The notes: generated from the sequence alone by a model not told the origin. A DNA stretch of 51,971 bases from Gemmatimonadota bacterium (GCA_046729675.1 JBKPGZ010000223.1:1-51971), one strand, 5' to 3'; shown: positions 20,107 to 30,302, numbered from the stretch's first letter. Translations and numbers: made by a program.

Positions 20107-21540
20107 TCAGCCGCCCGGGATGTTCGCGCCGTGGCAAGCCGTGCACATCGAGGGATTCTTGCGGCGCAGGGTTTCCGGATCGAACCCCGGGCCGTGAGGA
20201 TTGAACCGGCGACCTCCTTGCGCGGAGTGGCAGCTGAGACAGTCCCGCTCCGAGTGACACGAGACGCAGCTCTCGAGATTCTGCCGGGCAGCCTGGCCGT
20301 GGTTCAGGAGGAACTCTGCCTTGGCGTCGTGGTACCCCGCTCCACGCAGGCCGTCCCTGGAGCCGAGACCTGAGCTGACATGGCAGTTGGCGCAGAACTG
20401 CGACTGATTGTGGCAGTCGGAACAGGACTGGTCGCGCGTGTACGCGGCGGCGGGGTGAGTCGTGAGGAAGCCAGCGGGATGATATCCGGGACTCGGATCC
20501 GCCGCGTTGGGCCGGTGGCAATCCAGGCACTGGGATCGCGCGTGGCATGCCCCGCAGCTCTGTGGTCTCGAGGACGCCAGCTCGGCGTGGTTGTCGGAGA
20601 AATCGATGCCGTGCGAGTCGGGACGCTTCCGCTCCACCCGGGCGCCCGGGCCGCGGCCTGGTCCCGAGGCATGCACGGCCAGGGCCGCCGTCGGCGAGGC
20701 CTGGTGGCAGTCGAGGCAGCTCTCCTGAGTATGGCAGGTGGCACACCGGAGAGCGTCCTTCCGGGCCGGGTCCCCGTGACGGAAGAGGAACGAGGGATCC
20801 GCGTGACTCGCCGGCGCGCGAAGCTCGGCCTGGATCGCCAACGATCGCGGATCGGACTCGAGGGCCTGGATGGCCGCCACCTCGGGGGCGTCGACGTGAC
20901 ACTCGGTGCAGAAGTCGCGCGCGTGGCAGGTGGCGCACGAGGCCGCGACGCCACGATTTCCTGCCCGCGCCTGAGCGCCGTGGCCCTCCTCCACGAAGCC
21001 GGGAGCCCGGTGCGAAGCCGGAGCGGGGAATCGGCTCACCTGGGTGCGGGTCAGGCCAACAGCCTGCGCCAGGGGCACGTGACAGGTGACGCAGGCGCTG
21101 TCAGGCGCGTCCAAGTGCCCGGCGCTGATGCCGTGGCAGTCGAGGCAGGTCCGGACCACGGCAAGGCGTACCTGCATGGGATCGGCGCCGGCCTCGGTGT
21201 GACAGACGCCGCACCGGAGCGCGGAATCGGGAGCTGCCTGCAGGAGCCCGTCGGCGTGACTCGAGTGGGTGAACTTCAGGTTGCTGGCCCGCGGGCCCGG
21301 CGGCGGGGACCAGTCCACTTTCTTCTGTATGGCGCCATCGTGACAGTCGGCGCAGTTCGTCTGGGCGGGCCAGAGCGATGCTTCAGGCTCGGCGGCACCC
21401 GCGTGGCACCCGACACAGGAGGGAAACAGCTCACGATGCTCCCAGTGGTCGAAGCGTTGCTGCGCCACCCAGGCAAGCGCGGAGCCGCTGGCGAGCGCGC
21501 CGATGAGGAGCACCAGCCCCGACCGCGATCCGAGCGTCAC
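20107..21540 (-). CDS. 16-heme c-type cytochrome (doubled-CxxCH type), secreted
   Basis: 16 CxxCH motifs counted, many as doublets (CATCHARDFCTECH, CATCHTQESCLDCH, CGACHARSQCLDCH, CSDCHNQSQFCANCH, CVSCHSERDCLSCH). GTG 21540-21538 overlaps the TGA of the barrel gene. Signal/anchor GLVLLIGALASGSALAWV. Confidence 0.85.
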   Translation of the reverse strand: MTLGSRSGLVLLIGALASGSALAWVAQQRFDHWEHRELFPSCVGCHAGAAEPEASLWPAQTNCADCHDGAIQKKVDWSPPPGPRASNLKFTHSSHADGLLQAAPDSALRCGVCHTEAGADPMQVRLAVVRTCLDCHGISAGHLDAPDSACVTCHVPLAQAVGLTRTQVSRFPAPASHRAPGFVEEGHGAQARAGNRGVAASCATCHARDFCTECHVDAPEVAAIQALESDPRSLAIQAELRAPASHADPSFLFRHGDPARKDALRCATCHTQESCLDCHQASPTAALAVHASGPGRGPGARVERKRPDSHGIDFSDNHAELASSRPQSCGACHARSQCLDCHRPNAADPSPGYHPAGFLTTHPAAAYTRDQSCSDCHNQSQFCANCHVSSGLGSRDGLRGAGYHDAKAEFLLNHGQAARQNLESCVSCHSERDCLSCHSAQGGRRFNPHGPGFDPETLRRKNPSMCTACHGANIPGG

Positions 21541-23045
21541 CGGCTTCCCGCCCGCGGACGGGTTCGCAACGCCGGCGGGAGGCGGAACACGTCGGTCTCG
21601 CTTCGCAGCAGCAGGGTCACCCTGGCGTGCAGCCGGGTCTGATTCCAGTCGAACGCCGCCGCGTCCGGCCGCTCCCGAGACTCCCAGTACCTCGCTCCGC
21701 CGACCCCGAGGCGCAGGCGGCTTCCCGGACTCCATTCCGCATCCACGCCCAGCACGTCGACTGAGGCATCGTTGAACCGAAACTCCAGCGGCCGGTCGAG
21801 GGTGGACCCATACCCGGTGATCGCGAGCACGGTCGTCGGGGTCCAGGTGACGAAGGCGTCGAAGCCATGGGACGACGCGCCGGGGCCGTACTCCTCACGG
21901 TAGCCCGCATCGAAGCGCCAGGCTGACCCGAGGCTGTAGGTGGCGCCCACGCCGAGCCGCCAGCCGTCATCGTCCACATCCACCAGCGGGGTTTCCGTTT
22001 CGGTGTCCGAAAAGGCGTAACGCTCTCCCCGGGCACGAAGCTCGAGCGAGCGGATGGGTCGCACGAAGACCGCGGCGTCCGCCGCGTGATACGGAACGGG
22101 GCTGAAGACGCCCCACAGGGTCCACAGATCGAAGTGGGGCCGGTATTGACGGAGTCCGCCGGTCACCGTGATCCGTGGCGCCGTGTACCGGACCACCGCG
22201 TCGGCGTTGCCGAACCAGGTATTGGCCAGGTCGTAGTCCGCCCCGGCGGCGAAGCTCCAGTATCGGCTCGGACGGAAATCCAGCGAGAGCGCCGCCCGCT
22301 CCGAAACGAAGTTGCGGCTGTCGCGATCGACTTCGCGCTGGTAGTCCAATCGCGCATTCCACAGACGCCCCTGGTACCCGAGCGCGCCGCCGGCGAGGAT
22401 CTGTCGACTCCGAGGCTGGAACTCGTCCAGCGGGTCGAGCGCGGGGCTGGTCGGTGTCAGCGCGGTCGCCCGCGCGAGCCCCAGGCCCGCGTATGCGTCG
22501 ACCTCGATCCCGCTGCGGCCGACCCGCACGATCCCGCGGCCGCCGTCGAAACCCACGATGCCGAGCCGATGGACCAGCAGCTGCCGACCACCGCGCACGG
22601 TGAACTGGCGATGTCCGTACTCGGCGTAGGCCTCGAGCAGCTGCGCCGCGGGCTCGGTGCCGGGCCAGGTCTCGTCACCGTCGAGATCGAGGCCAAGCCT
22701 CCCGTTCACGCGCACGCTGACGCCCGGGATGCCGAACCCCCAGAGCGTGAGGTCGGCCGTCGTCACCATCGGGCCGCCGGTGAGCTCCGGCCCTCCACGG
22801 AAGTAGAAGCAATAGGCGCTGCCGGGAGGGCAACGCACCGCGAAGTTGTCGGGTGTCCGCGGACCGCCCGTCGGGCCGGTGACGACCTCCCCGACGGGGA
22901 TGCTGTCCATCTCGACACCGCGAAAGGTCGCCCGCTGCACCCGCGAGTCGAGTCGCAGGCGATAACCCTGCGCCTCGACAGGACCCGAGCCGAGCCCGAG
23001 CAGGGCGATGCCCAGCAACCCGGCGACGCACCGGAGACGACTCAC
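21537..23045 (-). CDS. predicted outer-membrane beta-barrel protein (porin-like partner of the cytochromes)
   Basis: 502 aa, GTG start overlapping the upstream TGA. Signal peptide MSRLRCVAGLLGIALLGLGSGPVEAQG. No heme motifs. Repeated amphipathic beta-strand patterns rich in G/Y/W/R/D (RLGVGATYSLGSAWRFDAGY, AFVTWTPTTVLAITGYG, LGVDAEWSPGSRLRLGVGG). Confidence 0.65.
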   Translation of the reverse strand: MSRLRCVAGLLGIALLGLGSGPVEAQGYRLRLDSRVQRATFRGVEMDSIPVGEVVTGPTGGPRTPDNFAVRCPPGSAYCFYFRGGPELTGGPMVTTADLTLWGFGIPGVSVRVNGRLGLDLDGDETWPGTEPAAQLLEAYAEYGHRQFTVRGGRQLLVHRLGIVGFDGGRGIVRVGRSGIEVDAYAGLGLARATALTPTSPALDPLDEFQPRSRQILAGGALGYQGRLWNARLDYQREVDRDSRNFVSERAALSLDFRPSRYWSFAAGADYDLANTWFGNADAVVRYTAPRITVTGGLRQYRPHFDLWTLWGVFSPVPYHAADAAVFVRPIRSLELRARGERYAFSDTETETPLVDVDDDGWRLGVGATYSLGSAWRFDAGYREEYGPGASSHGFDAFVTWTPTTVLAITGYGSTLDRPLEFRFNDASVDVLGVDAEWSPGSRLRLGVGGARYWESRERPDAAAFDWNQTRLHARVTLLLRSETDVFRLPPALRTRPRAGSR

Positions 23046-25099
23046 GGCTCACCGCCGATCAGCCTGGTGCGGTACTCGCCGGGGGAGGCCTGCAGGTGGC
23101 AGACGGTGCACTCCTTCTGCTGATAGTGATCCGTCTCGCTCGAGTGGCAGGCCAGGCAGAACGACCGGGTGGGCTCCAGAGCGGCGACGGTCGTGGCGGT
23201 ATGGCATTGGTCGCAGGCGCGATGGGCATCGACCGGAGGCGCGTGCGCCTGGATGATGCCCCCGGTGCGGTGGCACGCGGCGCAGTCGAGCCCCGCGGTG
23301 TGATGGTTGTCGTGGCAGGAGGTGCAGGTCGCGACGGATTCCTTGGGTTCGAGAGTGACCGGAGTGACGTGACACTCCGTGCAGGCGACGTCGGCGTGCC
23401 GCGCGTGCTCGAACTCGACTCGCCGATCCCGGGGCGGCTCCTGAGCGACGCTCACCTTGACCGTCACAGATCGCGCGGGCTCGATCTCCCCGGCCTGGTG
23501 GCATGAAGCGCAATCCGCCTTCGTGGGGCGCTGGTGGTGGCAGATCTGACACCCACGGGGCGGCTGGAACGTGAGGTTGCTCGTCTGCGATGTGGTGCTG
23601 TGGCAGGTGATGCAGGCGAGTTTGCGATGGGTTCGATGGGAGAAGGTGTCGGCGAGAGCGGCGGTTCGGGCGATCGGCCTCCCGGGTGGCTCGTCGGGAA
23701 ACGGTGCGTCGCCTCGCCCCCGGGCGCGCCCCGGCTCGACCAGCCCATGGACACGGGGCGCCATGCTGTCGGACGGCGGCTGCGGCGGAAGTAGACTTTG
23801 CCGCAAGGCCTTCAGCGTATCGAACGGCAGCGGCGGCTTGTTCCGGCCACCCTGACGGACTGCGGTATGGCATCCGGTACAGTCGCTTGCGTCCACCCGG
23901 GCCGCGTGCGGCTGATGACAGGTCCGACACTGGTCCGCCACCTTCCGGTGGGCCTTGCCGGCGTGGAAGGCCATACTGCGCCAGTCGGCATGACAGCCGC
24001 CGCCGGCGCAGGATTTCAATGCGTCCGTGGGCTTGACGTCGGTGTGGGGATTGTGGCACATCCCGCAGCTCCCGCCATGGGGATCCTTGGCCGGGTCGAA
24101 CGTGGCGAACAGCACCCGCATCTCGTGGCAGCCGAAGCACTGCCCTTGGCCCGGGCGGAGGGCGCCGCCCGCGGAGTCGAGAGTCACGAACTGGGCGTCC
24201 GCGGTGAACTGGTGGCAGGAGTTGCAGTAGAGCTGCTCCTGGTTGGGATCCAGGTTCTCCCGCGAGAACCGGGCGGCCATGCTCCCGAGCCGGATCTTCA
24301 CCTGGTCGGTCAGATGGCAGCCCTTCTGCGCGCAGGTCGTGTCCGCCGGCTGGAATCGGTGAGCTGACCGTGCGTGGCAGGTGAGGCACTCTACGTCCTT
24401 CAGCGCCGACGAGTCCGACTCGAAGTGAATGCGATGTCCGGCGGTGGAGGCGATGCGCTGCCAGGTATCCTTGGCCTCCCCGTGCTTGTGACACTGCTCG
24501 CAGGTCTCCCTCGGCACCTTCGCGTGGGGCGGCACCTTTTCCGGGCGCTCGGTGATCCAGTAGTACATCTCCTTGGTCTGCGCCTCGAGCTCGAAGGGGT
24601 GGCAGGCGTGGCAGGAGAGACTGTCGTGGGCGCCCTCGACCTTGTTCACCAGCAGGTAGTGGCCGGTATCCGGCCGCACAAAGGCCTGCCCGCTGGGCAC
24701 GAAGATGTGGCACCCGCGGCAGAAATCGTTGTCATGCATCATGTAGTCGTAGGCCTTCACCCCCGTTCCCACCACCAGCAGAAGCACGGCCCCCAGCGCC
24801 CCGGTGAGCCCGAGCTTGACCCCGCGATCCCGGGTGACCAGCCACGTCCATATCGCCCACCGGCGGCGCCACAGGAAGACGGCAAGCACGATCGCCACGA
24901 TGGCGCCCAGCACGATGCCGCCGCCCATGACCCAGCCCGGCTTCTGGAATAGCCATTGCACGATGGGAACCATCGGGTCGGGCAGGGGGGAGTCGACCAC
25001 GACCGAGTCGATGAATTGCCCGGTCAGCGTGTCCTGGGCGGCCTGCAGCCAATCGGCCCCGGTGCTCAACACTGTTCCGGGGCCGATGTGACCTGGCAT
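23042..25099 (-). CDS. membrane-anchored multiheme c-type cytochrome (18 CxxCH + 2 CxxxxCH), NapC/NirT-like N-terminal module
   Basis: 685 aa, ATG verified. Two TM helices (GWVMGGGIVLGAIVAIVLAVFLW, LGLTGALGAVLLLVVGTG) followed by CRGCH, CHACH, CEQCH, CLTCH and 14 more CxxCH, plus CAQKGCH and CAGGGCH. Confidence 0.85.
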   Translation of the reverse strand: MPGHIGPGTVLSTGADWLQAAQDTLTGQFIDSVVVDSPLPDPMVPIVQWLFQKPGWVMGGGIVLGAIVAIVLAVFLWRRRWAIWTWLVTRDRGVKLGLTGALGAVLLLVVGTGVKAYDYMMHDNDFCRGCHIFVPSGQAFVRPDTGHYLLVNKVEGAHDSLSCHACHPFELEAQTKEMYYWITERPEKVPPHAKVPRETCEQCHKHGEAKDTWQRIASTAGHRIHFESDSSALKDVECLTCHARSAHRFQPADTTCAQKGCHLTDQVKIRLGSMAARFSRENLDPNQEQLYCNSCHQFTADAQFVTLDSAGGALRPGQGQCFGCHEMRVLFATFDPAKDPHGGSCGMCHNPHTDVKPTDALKSCAGGGCHADWRSMAFHAGKAHRKVADQCRTCHQPHAARVDASDCTGCHTAVRQGGRNKPPLPFDTLKALRQSLLPPQPPSDSMAPRVHGLVEPGRARGRGDAPFPDEPPGRPIARTAALADTFSHRTHRKLACITCHSTTSQTSNLTFQPPRGCQICHHQRPTKADCASCHQAGEIEPARSVTVKVSVAQEPPRDRRVEFEHARHADVACTECHVTPVTLEPKESVATCTSCHDNHHTAGLDCAACHRTGGIIQAHAPPVDAHRACDQCHTATTVAALEPTRSFCLACHSSETDHYQQKECTVCHLQASPGEYRTRLIGGEP

Positions 25100-25120: not shown

Positions 25121-26749
25121 TCAGCGGGAGCTGATCTTGCGCTGGTCACGAACCTTCAGGTGCCTCCTAACGCGATCCAGTAGTGCCTGGGTCTCGGGCG
25201 GAACGTGCAGGCTGAGACCGTAAGCGTCCTGCAAAGCATTGATGCTCGCACCGAGGAGCGACGTGCTCAGGCCCGGGTTGTGCACCCCTTTCGAGCGATC
25301 ACCATTGCTCGCACGTCCCTCGGCGATCAGTTGCACGTTGAACAGCACTCCCTCGGCGACACTGAGCGAGTCGTCGTTGGGGTTGAAGTTGACGGCCGGA
25401 TTCGGGATCTGGGTCAGAAGGCCGGTATCGCCAGGATCGAAGGCGCTAAAGGTCCCATCCTCCGTCGTCTCGTACAACACCTGGTCGCCGTCGGTGTCCG
25501 TCCAGATCTGATCGGCGAGCACGGCGATGTTGTTGCGGTGGTCGCTAAACGCGGATTGTACGACTTCGGCACTCCCGTGGCAGCCCGTGCACGCGCCCCA
25601 GTAGCGTGCGGTGGTGGTGTACTCGCAGGTGTTGTCCGACACCGGATCCCCCGTCGTCGGATCCAGGCACGGGACTGGTCTGAACAGGTGCCCCCTCGAC
25701 TCGATGGTCTCACCGGGGTTCAGCAGGTCCTCCACCTCGAAGTTGTTCACATGACACCCGGCGCAGAGCCGCGGGTTTGCTTCGGGAGTGCCATGGGTGG
25801 CGGCTTGCGCGGTGGTGTCGTAACCCGGCGGCCAGTACCCGGCCGTGCCCGTGAGCACGGCGCCCTGTGGGGCATGCGGCCCCCTCGAGCCGCTGGGCTC
25901 GTAGCGCCGGGTGTGGCACTTCATGCAGAGATTGCCCTCGAACGTGCCGTCCGAGATCGAGTAGCGGAGCTGACCCTCGTACTGACCGTTGTGGGGATCG
26001 TGGCAGACGGCGCAGGTGACACCCAGGTGGAGGTCTGCGGCAGGGACATCACGCTCGACATAGTTCTCCGTGACCCCCCAGGCCCTGAGCGCGGCGCGGC
26101 CTTCGTGACACGTCGCGCAGTTCTCACCGTGGTCCGCGACGAAGCTTCCATCCTCCGGATCGATCAGGGCTCGCGCGTGGCCGGACGTCCGCCACTCGTC
26201 GACGAAGGGATGGTGCGACCCACTGTGACACTCGGCGCAGGAGCCCGAGACCGTCGCCGTATCCGCGTTGACGTCCCCGGTGGCGACGTCTGACGCCAGC
26301 ACCTGGACCCGTGCCAGCGGGGGTGCCGTCGCGTCCGGGGTCTCGACGTGATCCACGCCGGGTCCATGGCAGCTCTCGCACTGCACGTCGTGGTAGGCTG
26401 TGTCCTGGACCGCGTTCCAGCCGGCAGGCTCGCTGACCTGGTTCCCGCGCTCGCTCACCGTGTGGCAGCCGAAGCAGGATTCCTTCTCGTTTCCACTGGC
26501 GATCAGGCTGTCATAGGCGGCCGCGTGGGCCGTCTCCACCCATTGGTTCTCGTGATCCACGTGGCAGTTGCCGCACGTGGTCGACTTGTCGCTGGTGGTG
26601 AAGTAGCCGACGAAGCCTGCCTCGGCATCCGGCGGGGGATTGAAAGGCTCGCGGTACACGATCTTCTCGTCGGTGCAACCCGCCGAGAGGAGGGAGAGCA
26701 GGCCGAAGCTCGCGAGGAGACGAAGGGCTGGGACCGGACGAAGGCGCAT
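25121..26749 (-). CDS. 9-heme c-type cytochrome, probable lipoprotein
   Basis: ATG 26749 verified. MRLRPVPALRLLASFGLLSLLSAGCTDEK has a lipobox-like signal. Nine CxxCH motifs (CGNCH, CFGCH, CESCH, CAECH, CATCH, CAVCH, CMKCH, CAGCH, CTGCH). Confidence 0.85.
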   Translation of the reverse strand: MRLRPVPALRLLASFGLLSLLSAGCTDEKIVYREPFNPPPDAEAGFVGYFTTSDKSTTCGNCHVDHENQWVETAHAAAYDSLIASGNEKESCFGCHTVSERGNQVSEPAGWNAVQDTAYHDVQCESCHGPGVDHVETPDATAPPLARVQVLASDVATGDVNADTATVSGSCAECHSGSHHPFVDEWRTSGHARALIDPEDGSFVADHGENCATCHEGRAALRAWGVTENYVERDVPAADLHLGVTCAVCHDPHNGQYEGQLRYSISDGTFEGNLCMKCHTRRYEPSGSRGPHAPQGAVLTGTAGYWPPGYDTTAQAATHGTPEANPRLCAGCHVNNFEVEDLLNPGETIESRGHLFRPVPCLDPTTGDPVSDNTCEYTTTARYWGACTGCHGSAEVVQSAFSDHRNNIAVLADQIWTDTDGDQVLYETTEDGTFSAFDPGDTGLLTQIPNPAVNFNPNDDSLSVAEGVLFNVQLIAEGRASNGDRSKGVHNPGLSTSLLGASINALQDAYGLSLHVPPETQALLDRVRRHLKVRDQRKISSR

Positions 26750-27042
26750 GAGGACCGCCTTTTGGATGATTCCGGACTGCCTGATGGCCAATCTGGCTGA
26801 CACATAGTTGGATCATCCGTAGAAATGCGCAAGTGCACCTTCGTAGAGGTGCTATCGCCTTTCTCGTGTTGCCGATTTACATCGGGCCACTCCGACGAAT
26901 TCCTGAGGTTTCCTTCACGTGCTCCGCGCGGGTTCGCTTCTTGTCGGGTATCTCCCGCGGGATTGAAACTCCGAAAGTAGGACCCGTCCTCCAGCTGATG
27001 CGGAAGGACGACCCGTTGGCCTCGACCTGCTAAATTACGACC

Positions 27043-27780
27043 GTGACCTCACCCGGCTCTGGATTCTGCAGTTTCTGCGGCACCGCGTTTGCACCCAGCG
27101 CTCGATTCTGTTCTGGCTGCGGCCGCACCCTCGGTGCGGCGCCCGTAAGGACGGTTGCGGTCGGATCGGCGGACCGCGTTCCGTGGCTCATCGCGGGCGG
27201 GGCGCTGGCCGGCATGCTCGTACTCCTGCTCGTTCTGGTCGTCCGGGGGTCCGAAACGCCGGCGGCCAGCGCGGCCGGTCCGGGTCCGGCGCCTGGGGAG
27301 ACCGGCATGGTGGCGCCCGACATCAGCCAGCTGTCGCCCGAGGAGCGCTTCGACCGGCTCTACAACCGGGTGATGCAGGCGGCCCAGTCGGGCGACCAGG
27401 CCACCATGAGCCGGTTCATGCCCATGGCACTCGGCGCGTACGATATGCTGGACTCGGCCGATGCCGATGCCCGTTATCATGCGGCGCTGCTCCGGGTCCA
27501 CAACGGGGACGTCCAGGGCTCCCGTGCCCTGGGTGACTCGATCCTGGCCGCACAACCCGGTCACCTGCTTGGGTATGTCGTGCTGGGGACCACGGCACGG
27601 TGGGCGAAGGACGAGGCCGGACTGGCCAGGGCCTACCAGGAGTTCCTGGCCCACTACGATGCCGAGATGAAGGCGGACCGCCGGGAGTACGGGGAGCACC
27701 GGGCCTCGATCGACGGGTTCCGGCGCGAGGCGCTGGCCGCCGAAACCGGCGCCGGCCAGGCGCCCCGGCGCGGGTCTTGA
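27043..27780 (+). CDS. zinc-ribbon / single-TM protein with helical (TPR-like) C-terminal domain
   Basis: GTG start. N-terminal FCSFCGTAFAPSARFCSGCG (CxxC-x10-CxxC), TM VPWLIAGGALAGMLVLLLVLVV, then a ~170-aa helical domain. Confidence 0.6.
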   Translation: MTSPGSGFCSFCGTAFAPSARFCSGCGRTLGAAPVRTVAVGSADRVPWLIAGGALAGMLVLLLVLVVRGSETPAASAAGPGPAPGETGMVAPDISQLSPEERFDRLYNRVMQAAQSGDQATMSRFMPMALGAYDMLDSADADARYHAALLRVHNGDVQGSRALGDSILAAQPGHLLGYVVLGTTARWAKDEAGLARAYQEFLAHYDAEMKADRREYGEHRASIDGFRREALAAETGAGQAPRRGS

Positions 27781-27844: not shown

Positions 27845-28264
27845 ATGAAGGCCGGTCACAAGTTCCTGCTCGGCGCGAGCATCATCGTGGTGAGCGTGAT
27901 CCTCCTGATCACCCAGGGGGTACGGGAGACCGGGGTCTACTTCCTCACGCCGAGCGAGCTCGCCGCCAAGACCTCGGCCGATCCTTCCTTTTATGATGTC
28001 GGTCTCAAGATGGGCGCCAAGGTCGTGCCCGGCTCGGTCCGCCGCGACCCCAGCAACCGGCAGATCGACTTCGAGGTGAGCGACGGCGTTCGCTCCTATC
28101 CGGTCACCTATCGTGGGCTCGTGCCCGACACCTTCACCGACGCCAACGACATCGAAGTGATCGTGGAGGGCCGTCTCGGTCGGGACGGTGTCTTCCGGGC
28201 CACCGAGGTGCTGGCCAAATGCGGCTCCAGATACGAAGCCGCGGCCCAAGGGAAACAGGCCTAG
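27845..28264 (+). CDS. ccmE: cytochrome c maturation heme chaperone CcmE, CxxxY variant
   Basis: 139 aa. ATG with GGAG upstream. TM anchor plus OB-fold-like sequence (YFLTPSEL, LKMGAKVVPGSV, FEVSDG, VTYRGLVPDTF, EVIVEGRL). The heme-attachment motif reads LAKCGSRYE (TGC 28220-28222, TAC 28232-28234) instead of LAKHDExY. Confidence 0.85.
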   Translation: MKAGHKFLLGASIIVVSVILLITQGVRETGVYFLTPSELAAKTSADPSFYDVGLKMGAKVVPGSVRRDPSNRQIDFEVSDGVRSYPVTYRGLVPDTFTDANDIEVIVEGRLGRDGVFRATEVLAKCGSRYEAAAQGKQA

Positions 28265-28268
28265 TCCG

Positions 28269-30302
28269 ATGACCCTGCTGGGTGAGTTCTGCCTCTGGCT
28301 GGCGCTGCTGCTCTCGGCCTGGGCGCTGGTGCTGGGTTTCTCCGGGCGCTGGCAGGACCGCCCGGATCTGACGGCCAGCGTGCGCGGCGCGGTGTTCGCC
28401 ACCTTCGGCGCGCTGGCGGTGGCCGCACTTTCGCTGTGGAAGGGACTCGCGAGCCACGACTTCAACATCGAGTACGTGGCCGCATACACTTCGCGGAACC
28501 TGCCCGACGGCTACATCATCTCGGCCCTCTGGGCCGGGCAGAAGGGCTCGCTCCTCTTCTGGGCGGTGGTGCTCTCCCTCTTCGGCACCCTGGCGCAGCT
28601 GCTCACACCCCGCCGCTACGACGCCCTGATGCCGTACGTGGCCGCGGTCACCTCCGCGGTGGTCGCCTTTTTCGTCTGTACCATGCTGTTCGCGGCAAAC
28701 CCCTTCGAGCGGATGGCCTTCACGCCGGCCGACGGGAGAGGGCTCAACCCGCAGCTGCAGAATCCGGGGATGATGATCCATCCCCCCATGCTCTATCTCG
28801 GCTACATCAGCATCACCATCCCGTTCGCCTTCGCCATCGCCGCCCTGCTGTCGCGCAGTCTGGACAGCGGGTGGATCCACGCCATCCGGAAATGGACGCT
28901 GGTGAGCTGGCTCTTCCTCTCCATCGGCATCACGCTGGGCATGTGGTGGGCGTACGTGGAACTGGGCTGGGGTGGCTACTGGGCGTGGGATCCCGTCGAG
29001 AACGCCAGCCTGCTGCCCTGGCTCACGATGACCGCCTTCCTCCATTCGGTGATGATCCAGGAAAAGCGCGGAATGCTGAAGCGGTGGAACCTCGGGCTCA
29101 TCGTGGGGACGTTCCTCCTCAGCATCTTCGGCACTTTCATCACCCGATCGGGCGTGATCGCCAGCGTCCACAGCTTCACCCAGTCCAACGTGGGCTATTT
29201 CTTCCTCGCGTTTCTGGTGGTCTGCGGGATCCTCGCATTCACGCTCCTCTACACCCGTTGGCCCACCCTGAAGGCCGAGGTCCAGCTGGAGTCGGTGGTG
29301 AGCCGCGAGGCGGCCTTCCTCTTCAACAACCTCCTGCTGGTGGGCGTGGCGTTCTCGGTGCTGTGGGGGACGCTCTTCCCGATCCTTTCAGAGCTGGTAA
29401 GGGGCAGCAAGATCACGGTCGGCCCGCCGTTCTTCAACCGGGTGAACGTGCCCCTGGGGCTCCTGCTCCTCGCACTAACCGGCGTCGGCCCGCTGATCGC
29501 CTGGCGCAAGGCGTCTCCCAACAACCTCAAGCGCCAGTTTACCGGACCGGTTGCCGCAGGGGTGGTCACCGCCATCGGGCTCCTCGCCGCGGGCGTCCGG
29601 GGGCTGTATCCCGTGATGGCGCTGAGCCTGGCCGGGTTCGCCGCCGGCACCATCGTTCAGGAGTTCTATCGTGGCGTGAGGGCGCGGCGCCGGATGCACG
29701 GGGAGTCGGCTCTGGTCGCGTTCGGGCGGCTGGTGGCCCGCAACCGGCGGCGGTACGGCGGGTACCTGGTGCACGCCGGGGTCCTGATCTACTTCGTGGC
29801 GTTCTCCGGCATGGCGTTCAAGCGGGAGATCGAGGCGACCCTCAAGCCGGGCGACTCGGTCACCCTGAAGAGCCCGTTCGGGCACACCTACACCTTCACC
29901 CACGTTGGAGTGTCGCAGTTCGAGGCGCTGAATCGGATCGTGAGTGCGGCGACGGTGCAGGTAGCCAAGGACGGGAAGCCGCAGGGACTGATGAGCTCCG
30001 AGAAGCGGCAGCACGTGGACAGCTTCCGGCGCCCGACCTTCGAGCCCTCCACCGAAGTGGGAATCCGAAGCAACCTCCAGGAAGACGTCTACATCACCTA
30101 CGCGGGCTCGATCGGCGGGACGGAGGAGGCGGTGTACCGCTTCACCATCAATCCGCTGGTGTGGTGGGTCTGGTTCGCCGGCTTCGTCCTGGCGTTCGGC
30201 GGACTGGTCACCATGTGGCCGGGCGGCGGTGTGGTGATACCCGCGGCGCGCCGTGCGCCGGTGCGTCCGAGGCTGGCGGAGGCGGGAGCGCTGACCGAGT
30301 GA
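28269..30302 (+). CDS. ccmF: cytochrome c-type biogenesis heme lyase subunit CcmF
   Basis: 677 aa from ATG 28269, 4 nt after the ccmE stop. Polytopic, with WWD-type motif WGGYWAWDPVENASLLPWL and conserved His-containing loops. Confidence 0.9.
   Translation: MTLLGEFCLWLALLLSAWALVLGFSGRWQDRPDLTASVRGAVFATFGALAVAALSLWKGLASHDFNIEYVAAYTSRNLPDGYIISALWAGQKGSLLFWAVVLSLFGTLAQLLTPRRYDALMPYVAAVTSAVVAFFVCTMLFAANPFERMAFTPADGRGLNPQLQNPGMMIHPPMLYLGYISITIPFAFAIAALLSRSLDSGWIHAIRKWTLVSWLFLSIGITLGMWWAYVELGWGGYWAWDPVENASLLPWLTMTAFLHSVMIQEKRGMLKRWNLGLIVGTFLLSIFGTFITRSGVIASVHSFTQSNVGYFFLAFLVVCGILAFTLLYTRWPTLKAEVQLESVVSREAAFLFNNLLLVGVAFSVLWGTLFPILSELVRGSKITVGPPFFNRVNVPLGLLLLALTGVGPLIAWRKASPNNLKRQFTGPVAAGVVTAIGLLAAGVRGLYPVMALSLAGFAAGTIVQEFYRGVRARRRMHGESALVAFGRLVARNRRRYGGYLVHAGVLIYFVAFSGMAFKREIEATLKPGDSVTLKSPFGHTYTFTHVGVSQFEALNRIVSAATVQVAKDGKPQGLMSSEKRQHVDSFRRPTFEPSTEVGIRSNLQEDVYITYAGSIGGTEEAVYRFTINPLVWWVWFAGFVLAFGGLVTMWPGGGVVIPAARRAPVRPRLAEAGALTE

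What the first reader, a model, noticed from the sequence alone, without database searches (positions are those of the whole stretch)
23042..25099. Fusion of a NapC/NirT-like quinol-dehydrogenase module to a ~16-heme extension, with two CxxxxCH sites
Seen: a ~55-aa N-terminus, TM1, a short Arg/Trp-rich loop (WRRRWAIWTWLVTRDRGVK), TM2, then four closely spaced CxxCH (CRGCH, CHACH, CEQCH, CLTCH) as in membrane tetraheme quinol dehydrogenases. These are followed by 14 more CxxCH and two five-residue-spaced motifs, CAQKGCH and CAGGGCH. Inference: a single polypeptide could take electrons from the quinol pool and carry them across the periplasm, replacing the separate CymA plus periplasmic shuttle of Shewanella-type systems. 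The CxxxxCH sites may need special handling by the variant Ccm machinery encoded next door.
Basis: partly seen in the sequence, partly recalled or inferred. Interest (0 to 1): 0.6.

Follow-up and report, generated by a model that had tools for sequence, protein, structure and literature searches.

The report
Membrane-anchored 20-heme NapC-like cytochrome
This gene encodes an inner-membrane-anchored protein with 20 heme sites whose first four hemes resemble known quinol-oxidising enzymes; it lies in a four-gene cytochrome and outer-membrane-barrel cassette kept throughout soil Gemmatimonadota, probably a wire carrying respiratory electrons to or from the cell surface.

Summary
The ORF at 23042-25099 (-) encodes 685 aa with 18 CxxCH and 2 CxxxxCH motifs, and all 40 cysteines lie in these motifs. 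Two TM helices flank an Arg-rich loop.

The NapC/NirT reading holds as remote homology. Pfam misses this protein, but its family profile matches E. coli NapC (97-98%, TM helix and all four hemes in register) and TorC (96.7%). Of 91 relatives, 59 hit PF03264.

The architecture is modular: a NapC-like tetraheme, a CX4CH heme, a NrfB/MtrA-like stretch (hemes 6-11), a linker of variable length (37-151 aa), then three c7-type triheme units. It is therefore two rigid heme blocks on a tether, not a demonstrably continuous 20-heme rod.

The order 9-heme lipoprotein, 20-heme protein, barrel, 16-heme protein is kept wherever the flanks allow (65/65, 66/66 and 57/57 Gemmatimonadota loci).

The idea that a special Ccm handles the CX4CH sites is not supported. 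These ccm genes are the only CcmE and CcmF found in the genome. CxxxY CcmE occurs in relatives that lack this gene. CX4CH and CxxCH swap at the same heme positions.

Verdict: an uncharacterised variant of the NapC/NirT quinol dehydrogenases, the likely quinone-pool end of a porin-cytochrome conduit. The function is inferred.

The parts
23042..25099 (-). Whole gene: a 685-aa c-type cytochrome with 20 heme motifs (18 CxxCH and 2 CxxxxCH)
   Evidence: ORF listing and motif count. More than 800 homologues, the best 120 at 63-89% identity, named Gemmatimonadales where a name is given.
24935..25099 (-). N-tail, residues 1-55. The stretch from about residue 22 to 55 is conserved (DSVVVxSPLPDPxVPIVQWxFQKP). 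Predicted to be periplasmic.
   Evidence: Invariant columns D23 to W56 in alignment A1. Net charge -4 with a single K/R. There is no hydrophobic signal-peptide core.
24869..24934 (-). TM helix 1, residues about 56-77. NapC has no counterpart to this helix.
   Evidence: Hydropathy peak of 2.66. Modelled as a helix with pLDDT above 90.
24815..24868 (-). Cytoplasmic Arg/Trp-rich loop, residues 78-95 (RRRWAIWTWLVTRDRGVK)
   Evidence: 6 K/R, net charge +5. It aligns to the cytoplasmic N-terminus of E. coli NapC, LWKWWRTPSR.
24749..24814 (-). TM helix 2, residues about 96-117, equivalent to the single membrane anchor of NapC/NirT proteins
   Evidence: hhalign places it on the NapC TM helix. Hydropathy peak of 2.09.
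24350..24748 (-). NapC/NirT-like tetraheme module, residues 118-250, hemes 1-4. It carries a clade-specific 13-aa insertion (RPDTGHYLLVNKV) after heme 1, and CxxCHIF in place of CxxCHxM.
   Evidence: hhalign to NapC 97.3-97.9% and to TorC 96.7%. PF03264 hits in 59 of 91 relatives. The heme 1-2 spacing is 36 here and 23 in distant orthologues. F versus M after heme 1 is tallied.
24314..24334 (-). Heme 5, first CxxxxCH motif (C256 AQKG C261 H262)
   Evidence: CX4CH in 196 of 198 twenty-heme relatives. It always lies 18 residues after heme 4.
23867..24250 (-). NrfB/MtrA-like stretch, residues 284-411, hemes 6-11
   Evidence: hhalign to E. coli NrfB 93% over residues 286-379. Weak TIGR03508 (DmsE family) hit over 284-402, 28.6 bits. 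Weak match to PDB chain 6r2q_A.
23990..24010 (-). Heme 9, second CxxxxCH motif (C364 AGGG C369 H370)
   Evidence: CX4CH in 186 of 198 relatives and CxxCH in the other 12. It aligns to an ordinary CxxCH of NrfB with a 2-residue gap.
23645..23866 (-). Variable Pro-rich linker, residues 412-485, between heme 11 and heme 12. It contains conserved PPLPFDT and PGRxRGxG islands.
   Evidence: The heme 11-12 gap ranges from 37 to 151 aa (median 76) in 149 orthologues, while most other gaps vary by only a few residues. pLDDT is below 50 over 416-432 and 437-485. Conserved islands are seen.
23045..23644 (-). Three tandem c7/c3-type triheme units, residues 486-685, hemes 12-20
   Evidence: Pfam Cytochrome_C7 at 44.8 bits and Cytochrom_CIII at 40.1 bits, both above their cut-offs. 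Units A and B are 36% identical (E 1e-7), and each unit spans the c7 profile. PDB matches to c3 and c7 chains and to a 158-residue chain deposited as 'Cytochrome c family protein' (3oue).
25121..26803 (-). Upstream operon partner: a 9-heme putative lipoprotein cytochrome (560 aa, lipobox LSAGC)
   Evidence: Motifs and N-terminus. Present upstream in 65 of 65 loci with enough flank.
21537..23045 (-). Downstream operon partner: a 502-aa putative outer-membrane beta-barrel. Its GTG start overlaps the cytochrome's TGA stop (GTGA).
   Evidence: Weak OMP_b-brl hit. Signal-peptide-like N-terminus. Overlap read. Present downstream in 66 of 66 loci.
20107..21735 (-). Fourth operon gene: a 16-heme cytochrome. 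The listed start is probably too far upstream; a signal-peptide-like segment lies at residues 72-92.
   Evidence: 16 CxxCH. Pfam MtrC/MtrF domain II/IV at 49 bits. Present in 57 of 57 loci. Relatives align only from about residue 83-95 onward.
27845..30302 (+). Divergently placed ccmE (CxxxY type) and ccmF. This is the genome's general System I, not a dedicated lyase.
   Evidence: Pfam CcmF_C and Cytochrom_C_asm. A single CcmE and a single CcmF in the genome. AKCGSRY in 30 of 30 relatives inspected.

Best explanation
The gene encodes an inner-membrane c-type cytochrome. Its predicted topology is N-tail out, TM1, a cytoplasmic Arg-rich loop, TM2, then a periplasmic domain carrying all 20 heme sites.

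TM2 and hemes 1-4 form a divergent NapC/NirT-type module. By analogy with CymA, NapC, NrfH and TorC, this module exchanges electrons with the membrane quinol/quinone pool at heme 1, close to the membrane surface. Electrons then pass along hemes 5-11, a compact block whose distal part resembles NrfB/MtrA. From there they reach a second block of three c7-type triheme units (hemes 12-20), which is tied on by a flexible linker of variable length.

The protein is the membrane end of a conserved four-gene cassette: a 9-heme lipoprotein, this protein, a beta-barrel and a 16-heme cytochrome. The cassette most likely forms a porin-cytochrome conduit linking respiration to an extracellular redox partner such as Fe/Mn minerals or humic substances. 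The direction of flow is not determined.

Shown here: the motifs, their conservation, the remote NapC/TorC and NrfB homology, the c7 repeats, the variable linker and the conserved gene order.

Inferred: quinol reactivity, the path of electrons, the location of each partner and the physiological acceptor.
For: Motifs
- There are 20 heme motifs, and every cysteine of the protein lies in one.
- The motifs are invariant or nearly invariant in 43 homologues down to 31% identity.
- 19 non-motif His and 2 Met are conserved, enough for six-coordinate hemes, and there is no CxxCK or other catalytic signature.

Topology
- The charge distribution puts the loop inside and the heme domain outside.
- The TM hairpin is modelled with pLDDT above 90.

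NapC/NirT homology
- hhalign to NapC gives 97.3% over 148 columns, including the anchor helix and all four hemes, and 97.9% with a wider profile.
- hhalign to TorC gives 96.7%.
- BLASTP of the module against NapC gives E 3e-6.
- Controls: NrfA 14% and NapB 66%.
- 59 of 91 relatives hit PF03264.
- NCBI and JGI name some relatives 'NapC/NirT family cytochrome c' or 'nitrate/TMAO reductase-like tetraheme subunit'.
- K176, in the motif TKEMYY, aligns with the SKELY lysine of NapC.

Other modules
- NrfB-like stretch at 93%.
- c7 repeats.

Context
- The gene order is kept in 65/65, 66/66 and 57/57 loci, and in relatives with only 30-38% identical proteins.
- The GTGA stop/start overlap with the barrel gene suggests coupled translation.
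- No other canonical NapC/NirT protein was found in the genome, which is 85% complete.
Against: - This protein itself fails the Pfam PF03264 threshold.
- No structural match could be obtained. Foldseek found nothing for either model, and the VIA libraries were unavailable.
- The Met of CxxCHxM at heme 1, present in E. coli NapC and TorC, is Phe in this clade, and a 13-aa insertion follows it. The putative quinol site is therefore remodelled and could be inactive.
- The linker between hemes 11 and 12 means the heme chain may not be continuous.
- The full-length model is poor, with pLDDT 62.8.
- There is no expression or biochemical data.
- Distribution within the genus is patchy: 7 of 25 genomes, counting the window's own.
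Confidence: 0.6

Rival explanations
1. The protein is a membrane-tethered electron relay with no quinol chemistry. The NapC-like head has lost quinol reactivity and serves only as an anchor with its first hemes. Electrons come from, or go to, another quinol-oxidising complex encoded elsewhere in the genome, such as bc1 or alternative complex III.
For: The heme-1 Met of CxxCHxM is replaced by Phe, and a 13-aa insertion sits at the putative quinol site in this clade. Pfam's NapC/NirT model does not recognise this protein.
Against: More distant orthologues in the same cassette keep CxxCHxM (74 of the 198 twenty-heme relatives tallied), so the ancestral module looks canonical. The cassette contains no other membrane redox subunit. 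The region around hemes 1-2 is the most conserved part of the protein, which argues for a function beyond anchoring.
Confidence: 0.15
2. The hardware is the same but the direction is reversed. The cassette takes electrons up from extracellular Fe(II), Mn(II) or reduced humics, and the NapC-like head reduces quinone, as proposed for CymA/ImoA in iron oxidisers.
For: NapC/NirT proteins are discussed as bidirectional (PMC6295460). ImoA of Sideroxydans is proposed to be the inner-membrane end of the Mto pathway, which serves Fe(II) oxidation (bioRxiv 10.1101/2022.01.10.475773, abstract). From my own knowledge, cultured Gemmatimonadota are mostly aerobes or microaerophiles, and the genomes carrying the cassette come largely from soil-MAG series.
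Against: Nothing in the sequence fixes the direction. The low-heme-density lipoprotein partner resembles terminal reductases of the MtrC/OmcB type only in a general way.
Confidence: 0.15
3. The protein is a periplasmic multiheme enzyme or an electron store (capacitor) unrelated to the outer membrane, and the barrel neighbour has an independent role.
For: High heme density, about 28 aa per heme. Weak similarity to HmcA-type and c3-type periplasmic cytochromes in the cassette.
Against: There is no catalytic heme signature such as CxxCK or a missing-ligand site. The barrel gene is invariably adjacent, and its start overlaps this gene's stop. A lipoprotein cytochrome is always the first gene of the cassette.
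Confidence: 0.05

Closest known systems
NapC/NirT family quinol dehydrogenases (E. coli NapC and TorC; Shewanella CymA; NrfH)
   Same: A membrane anchor helix lies directly before heme 1. The four CxxCH motifs come in the same order, with matching FCxxCH, CxxCHxP, ECxxCH and CxxCH..AH contexts. The cytoplasmic W-rich pre-anchor segment also matches. hhalign gives 97-98% to NapC and 96.7% to TorC.
   Different: This protein has 685 aa and 20 hemes, against about 200 aa and 4 hemes (5 in TorC). It has an extra N-terminal tail and a second TM helix. In this clade CxxCHxM is replaced by CxxCHIF and a 13-aa insertion follows heme 1. It scores below the Pfam PF03264 threshold. It lies in a barrel/cytochrome cassette rather than next to a periplasmic reductase.
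ImcH of Geobacter sulfurreducens (an inner-membrane multiheme cytochrome with a NapC/NirT-like region)
   Same: The concept is the same: extra TM helices, a NapC/NirT-like region and additional hemes in one inner-membrane protein used for extracellular electron transfer (PMC6295460, PMC4251993).
   Different: ImcH has 3 TM helices, a CX3CH motif next to the membrane, 6 CxxCH and about 500 aa, and it is not found next to mtrAB-like genes (PMC6295460). Here there is no CX3CH, there are 20 hemes, and the barrel gene is always adjacent. Direct sequence comparison with ImcH was not done.
MtrA/DmsE decaheme family and NrfB
   Same: Hemes 6-9/10 align to E. coli NrfB (93%) and weakly to the DmsE-family model and to PDB chain 6r2q_A. 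The gene order lipoprotein cytochrome, this protein, barrel mirrors mtrC-mtrA-mtrB (the mtr gene order is from my own knowledge).
   Different: The TIGR03508 score is 28.6 bits against a cut-off of 192. MtrA is soluble, has 10 hemes and has no membrane anchor.
Tandem c7-type multiheme cytochromes (PpcA-type units; GSU1996-type polymers)
   Same: The C-terminal 200 residues form three triheme units, the first two carrying the FxHxxH-x4-CxxCH signature. Pfam c7 and cIII hits pass their cut-offs, and there are PDB matches to c7 and c3 chains and to 3oue.
   Different: Here the units are covalently tethered to a membrane-anchored 11-heme block instead of forming a free periplasmic protein.
Porin-cytochrome conduits (MtrCAB of Shewanella; Pcc/Ext clusters of Geobacter)
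   Same: A beta-barrel gene is flanked by multiheme cytochrome genes, one of which encodes a lipoprotein.
   Different: The quinol-dehydrogenase-like module is built into one of the cassette's own cytochromes rather than encoded separately. The barrel is only weakly recognised. Which cytochrome enters the barrel is not known.

Membership tests
NapC/NirT cytochrome c family (Pfam PF03264) | Score above the Pfam gathering threshold (24.1 bits) for Cytochrom_NNT | tested here: not met
   No PF03264 hit for this protein even at E<=0.1. However, 59 of 91 relatives do hit at E<=0.01, with a best E of 2.8e-11.
NapC/NirT cytochrome c family (Pfam PF03264) | An N-terminal membrane anchor directly followed by four CxxCH motifs collinear with NapC/TorC | tested here: met
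   hhalign of residues 81-249 to NapC residues 12-190 gives 97.3%; the wider profile gives 97.9%; TorC gives 96.7%. Controls: NrfA 14% and NapB 66%.
NapC/NirT cytochrome c family (Pfam PF03264) | CxxCHxM motif at heme 1 | tested here: not met
   This protein reads CRGCHIF. Among the 198 twenty-heme relatives tallied, 121 have F at this position and 74 have M.
NapC/NirT cytochrome c family (Pfam PF03264) | Quinol dehydrogenase activity | not testable with these tools
   This needs biochemistry. The only sequence hint is K176 aligning with the SKELY lysine of NapC.
ImcH family | Three TM helices, a CX3CH motif next to the membrane and about 6 further CxxCH motifs (PMC6295460) | tested here: not met
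   No CxxxCH motif, 2 hydrophobic helices and 20 heme motifs. No ImcH sequence was available for a direct alignment.
MtrA/DmsE decaheme family (TIGR03508) | Score above the NCBIfam cut-off of 192.2 bits; ten hemes; a soluble periplasmic protein | tested here: not met
   28.6 bits over residues 284-402 only. The protein has 20 hemes and is membrane-anchored.
Cytochrome c7 / class III cytochrome c (PF14522, PF02085) | Pfam score above the cut-off; triheme or tetraheme units with the FxHxxH...CxxCH signature | tested here: met
   PF14522 at 44.8 bits (cut-off 24.8) and PF02085 at 40.1 bits (cut-off 22.9), both in the C-terminal third. The three units each span the c7 profile, and units A and B are homologous to each other.
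Porin-cytochrome gene cluster | An outer-membrane barrel gene adjacent to multiheme cytochrome genes, including a lipoprotein cytochrome | tested here: met
   The gene order is kept in 65/65, 66/66 and 57/57 loci. The upstream gene carries the lipobox LSAGC. The barrel assignment rests only on a weak OMP_b-brl hit and a signal peptide.
Dedicated heme lyase system for non-standard motifs (NrfEFG / CcsA1 / SirEFG type) | A second, specialised maturation gene set that co-occurs with the unusual motif | tested here: not met
   Only one CcmF and one CcmE were found in the genome. The same CxxxY CcmE occurs in relatives with no match to this cytochrome. A ccm gene lies within the locus in 15 of 41 loci with enough upstream flank.

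The most novel reading that the evidence does not exclude
One polypeptide sits in both membranes. Its NapC-like head oxidises quinol in the inner membrane. Its C-terminal rod of three c7-type units, held on a flexible tether of variable length, is threaded into the barrel encoded by the overlapping downstream gene. The protein would then do the jobs of CymA, the periplasmic shuttle and MtrA in a single chain, with the tether allowing for changes in periplasmic width.
Probability: 0.2. Interest if true: 0.85.

Novelty: new variant of a known kind. Interest (0 to 1): 0.55.

Why it matters
In the studied extracellular-electron-transfer systems, the quinol-oxidising step (CymA, ImcH, CbcL), the periplasmic carriers and the outer-membrane conduit are separate proteins. 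How electrons cross the periplasm is still debated.

Here a NapC/NirT-type head is fused to 16 more hemes. The fusion is fixed in a four-gene barrel/cytochrome cassette across at least 80 Gemmatimonadota species genomes; 271 candidate stretches in the genome collection encode a relative. Related NapC-headed giants with up to 34 hemes occur in proteins labelled Myxococcota, Bdellovibrionota or Deltaproteobacteria.

If the head is an active quinol dehydrogenase, this is a compact, self-contained module. It could explain redox activity of abundant but poorly understood soil bacteria. It would also be an attractive part for bioelectrochemical engineering and a good test case for how tethered heme blocks bridge the periplasm.

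Tried and rejected
Searches that gave nothing
- Direct Pfam and NCBIfam scans gave no NapC/NirT hit for this protein.
- phmmer and a profile search against PDB sequences found only c3/c7 matches at the C-terminus; NrfH matched only spuriously at residues 607-646.
- Foldseek against the PDB found nothing significant for the full-length model (pLDDT 62.8) or for the N-terminal model (pLDDT 80.3).

Alignment A2 was used instead.

Limits of what could be measured
- Sequencing-run search: no RNA holder was listed, and only soil or rhizosphere DNA runs with small word shares (0.05-0.06) came up.

Ideas considered and dropped
- A stand-alone tetraheme form of this family. The short hits are contig-end fragments or are marked 'partial'.
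- A dedicated Ccm system for the CX4CH sites.
- A catalytic multiheme enzyme. There is no CxxCK, and enough axial ligands are conserved.

Literature
- Searches found no description of this family.

Full report
**Observation.** The minus-strand ORF at 23042-25099 is intact (685 aa, ATG start). Its third-position GC of 0.86 is typical of the real genes in this 69% GC window. A motif count finds 18 CxxCH and two CxxxxCH (C256-AQKG-CH and C364-AGGG-CH), and no CxxxCH or CxxCK. All 40 cysteines lie in these 20 motifs. Two hydrophobic segments (about 53-80 and 92-116) flank the loop RRRWAIWTWLVTRDRGVK.

**Topology.** The loop has 6 K/R and a net charge of +5. The 55-residue N-tail has one K/R and a net charge of -4, and the stretch after TM2 has a net charge of -2. 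By the positive-inside rule the loop is cytoplasmic, and both the N-tail and the heme domain are periplasmic. This is the only arrangement compatible with covalent heme attachment. The N-tail from about residue 22 is strongly conserved (DSVVVxSPLPDPxVPIVQWxFQKP), so it is a real part of the protein. The helical hairpin is modelled with pLDDT above 90.

**Family and distribution.**
- A word-indexed search returned more than 800 homologues. The best 120 are 63-89% identical and 616-715 aa long, and those that carry a name are Gemmatimonadales MAGs.
- A scan of one genome per species found 271 stretches that encode a relative. Of the best 80 loci, 79 are labelled Gemmatimonadota (Gemmatimonadales, Gemmatimonadaceae, or Gemmatimonas sp. 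MAGs). The exception is a 2-kb contig binned as Nonomuraea, which is probably a mis-binned contig.
- Within the window's own genus, only 7 of 25 genomes have the gene, counting the window's own. All 8 genomes sampled from a sister family have a homologue of 38-43% identity, most in open frames of about 550-575 aa.
- All 20 heme motifs are invariant or nearly invariant in 43 sequences down to 31% identity.

**Is the N-terminal part NapC/NirT-like?** Direct tests fail. Pfam PF03264 gives no hit at E<=0.1, NCBIfam gives nothing relevant, and the NrfH sequence in the PDB is not matched there. Profile methods succeed.
- The 43-sequence family profile aligns to E. coli NapC with 97.3% probability (E 2e-11) over 148 columns, residues 81-249 against NapC 12-190.
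- That alignment places the W-rich cytoplasmic segment, TM2 and all four CxxCH motifs in register. It also matches FCxxCH, CxxCHP, the TKEMYY/SKELY helix, ECxxCH and CxxCH..AH.
- A 91-sequence profile gives 97.9%, and TorC gives 96.7%.
- Pairwise BLASTP of the module against NapC gives E 3e-6.
- Two other E. coli c-type cytochromes, used as controls, score far lower: NrfA 14%, and NapB 66% over only 24 columns.
- An exhaustive HMMER search of 1.84 billion cluster representatives with residues 44-275 found only 236 proteins at E<=0.001. When 91 family members were scanned singly, 59 hit PF03264, with a best E of 2.8e-11.
- NCBI and JGI name some of these relatives 'NapC/NirT family cytochrome c' or 'nitrate/TMAO reductase-like tetraheme cytochrome c subunit'.

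The module is therefore a divergent NapC/NirT head. TM2 is the canonical anchor helix, and TM1 plus the N-tail are additions. No structural confirmation could be obtained: Foldseek found nothing for either model, and the VIA-align libraries were unavailable.

**Peculiarities of the head in this clade.** More distant orthologues have CxxCH[VIL]M at heme 1, as NapC and TorC do. The window's clade has CxxCHIF: among 198 twenty-heme relatives, 121 have F and 74 have M. The clade also has a 13-residue insertion (RPDTGHYLLVNKV) just after heme 1. This lengthens the heme 1-2 spacing from 23 to 36 residues, and the insertion is modelled with low confidence. The membrane-proximal heme environment, where NapC/NirT proteins bind quinol, is therefore remodelled.

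**The remaining sixteen hemes.**
- Heme 5 is the first CX4CH. It always lies 18 residues after heme 4.
- Residues 286-379 (hemes 6-9) align to E. coli NrfB at 93%. The same region gives a weak DmsE/MtrA-family hit (TIGR03508, 28.6 bits) and weak matches to PDB chain 6r2q_A. To my knowledge that chain is MtrA of the MtrCAB structure, although the table labels it differently.
- In the NrfB alignment the second CX4CH (CAGGGCH) pairs with an ordinary CxxCH plus a two-residue gap.
- In 149 twenty-heme orthologues most inter-heme spacings vary by only a few residues. The exception is the gap between hemes 11 and 12, which ranges from 37 to 151 residues with a median of 76.
- In the window's protein this segment (412-485) is 18% proline and has pLDDT below 50 over 416-432 and 437-485. 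It contains two conserved islands, PPLPFDT..AL and PGRxRGxG.
- The last 200 residues are three tandem c7/c3-type triheme units. Pfam Cytochrome_C7 (44.8 bits) and Cytochrom_CIII (40.1 bits) both pass their cut-offs. Units A and B are 36% identical (E 1e-7), and each unit spans the c7 profile. The PDB profile search hits PpcA-type c7 chains, c3 chains and chain 3oue.

The protein is thus an 11-heme block and a 9-heme block joined by a tether. It is not demonstrably one continuous rod. Nineteen non-motif histidines and two methionines are conserved. That is enough axial ligands for electron-transfer hemes, and there is no catalytic signature.

**Context.**
- The gene is the second of four co-directional genes: a 9-heme putative lipoprotein (25121-26803, lipobox LSAGC), this gene, a 502-aa putative beta-barrel with a signal peptide (21537-23045), and a 16-heme cytochrome (20107-21735).
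- The barrel's GTG start overlaps this gene's TGA stop (GTGA).
- Across the 80 loci, the lipoprotein cytochrome is upstream in 65 of 65, the barrel is downstream in 66 of 66, and the 16-heme gene follows in 57 of 57, wherever the flanks are long enough.
- The same order holds in relatives whose proteins are only 30-38% identical.
- No other membrane redox subunit belongs to the cassette, and no canonical NapC/NirT gene was found elsewhere in the genome, which is 85% complete.
- This makes the protein the best candidate for the cassette's link to the quinone pool.
- From my own knowledge, the order lipoprotein cytochrome, this protein, barrel mirrors mtrC-mtrA-mtrB. It remains open whether this protein or the 16-heme protein enters the barrel.

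**The CxxxxCH sites and Ccm.**
- The sites are genuine and conserved. Heme 5 is CX4CH in 196 of 198 relatives and heme 9 in 186 of 198. In the other 12, heme 9 is CxxCH. In 52 relatives heme 18 is CX4CH instead of CxxCH. The two spacings therefore interchange at homologous positions.
- CX4CH is also a standard motif of class III cytochromes: CMTEGCH is visible in the 1czj alignment.
- The neighbouring ccmE and ccmF are the only CcmE and CcmF found in the genome.
- CcmE was found in 40 of 41 related genomes. All 30 sequences inspected read AKCGSRY, the CxxxY type, including those from genomes with no match to this cytochrome.
- A ccm gene lies within the locus in only 15 of 41 loci with at least 6.5 kb of upstream sequence.
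- CxxxY CcmE is a known variant in archaea and Desulfovibrio (PMC9084895).
- The Ccm system here is thus the lineage's housekeeping machinery. Nothing points to special handling of these two sites.
- One of the relatives, G003, is an unpublished genome. It contributes one of the 30 CcmE sequences and one of the genomes without a match to the cytochrome.

**Wider superfamily and novelty.**
- A search seeded with a 30-heme relative of the module shows NapC-headed cytochromes of about 540-870 aa. Those with NCBI names come from MAGs labelled Myxococcales, Polyangiales or Polyangiaceae, Deltaproteobacteria, Bdellovibrionota or Bdellovibrionales, Longimicrobiales and Gemmatimonadaceae. Relatives with up to 34 hemes were counted.
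- The short family members are contig-end fragments or are marked partial, so no stand-alone tetraheme form of this family was seen.
- Known precedents for extended NapC/NirT proteins are TorC (5 hemes) and ImcH (3 TM helices, one CX3CH and 6 CxxCH; PMC6295460, PMC4251993).
- Literature searches found no description of this 20-heme family or of its cassette.
- I rate it a new variant of a known kind: an uncharacterised, widely conserved NapC/NirT-headed multiheme protein built into a porin-cytochrome cassette.

**Mechanism and confidence.**
- Most likely (0.6), the head exchanges electrons with the quinol pool. The 11-heme block and the tethered 9-heme block relay them toward the barrel and surface cytochromes, or in the reverse direction.
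- Rivals are a relay without quinol chemistry (0.15), the same hardware run inward for electron uptake (0.15), and a periplasmic enzyme or capacitor unrelated to the barrel (0.05).
- The boldest reading not excluded is that the C-terminal block of this same chain sits in the barrel, so that one polypeptide spans both membranes (about 0.2).
- Quinol activity, heme occupancy, continuity of the heme chain, partner locations and the direction of flow are all inferred and need experiments.

Noticed in passing
window 23645-23866 (-), residues 412-485: The only inter-heme gap of widely variable length in the family (37-151 aa) contains two conserved islands, PPLPFDT..AL and PGRxRGxG(D). These could be docking sites for a partner or for the barrel.
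   Followed up: partly
window 24659-24721 (-), residues about 127-147: Clade-specific changes at the putative quinol-facing heme 1: CxxCHIF instead of CxxCHxM, followed by a conserved 13-aa insertion (RPDTGHYLLVNKV). More distant orthologues lack both changes.
   Followed up: partly
window 20107-21735 (-): The first 70 or so residues of the 16-heme ORF are not conserved in relatives, whose alignments begin at about residue 83-95. A signal-peptide-like segment (LVLLIGALASGSALA) lies at residues 72-92, so the true start is probably downstream of the listed ATG.
   Followed up: partly
window 23042-23048: The stop codon of the 20-heme gene and the GTG start of the barrel gene overlap (GTGA), which suggests translational coupling.
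   Followed up: no
window 27043-27780 (+): Homologues of the zinc-ribbon/TM protein lie next to the cytochrome cassette in several loci where no ccm gene was found within the locus (for example L053, L058, L079, L116). It may therefore belong with the cassette rather than with ccm.
   Followed up: no
window 27845-28264 (+) and loci L018-L047: The CcmE heme-binding motif is CxxxY (AKCGSRY) in all 30 related genomes inspected, so this variant is a trait of the whole order.
   Followed up: yes
L055 (DASUCK010000195.1, 2071 bp): A 2-kb contig binned as Nonomuraea sp. carries a fragment 68% identical to this Gemmatimonadales gene. It is most likely a binning error in that MAG.
   Followed up: no
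PDB table rows for 6r2q_A: The chain matching the middle of the protein is labelled 'Cystathionine beta-synthase' in the tool's table. To my knowledge 6R2Q is the MtrCAB complex and chain A is MtrA, so the label looks wrong.
   Followed up: no
proteins P0207, P0209, P0218, P0224, P0230, P0251: Relatives of the N-terminal module carry 30-34 CxxCH motifs in 650-770 aa behind a single TM helix. These are extremely heme-dense NapC-headed proteins. Other hits of the search seeded with P0209 carry NCBI labels such as Myxococcales, Polyangiales and Bdellovibrionota.
   Followed up: partly
genomes G001-G024: The cassette is patchy within the window's own genus (7 of 25 genomes, counting the window's own) but was found in all 8 sampled genomes of a sister family. 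This suggests repeated loss or transfer.
   Followed up: no
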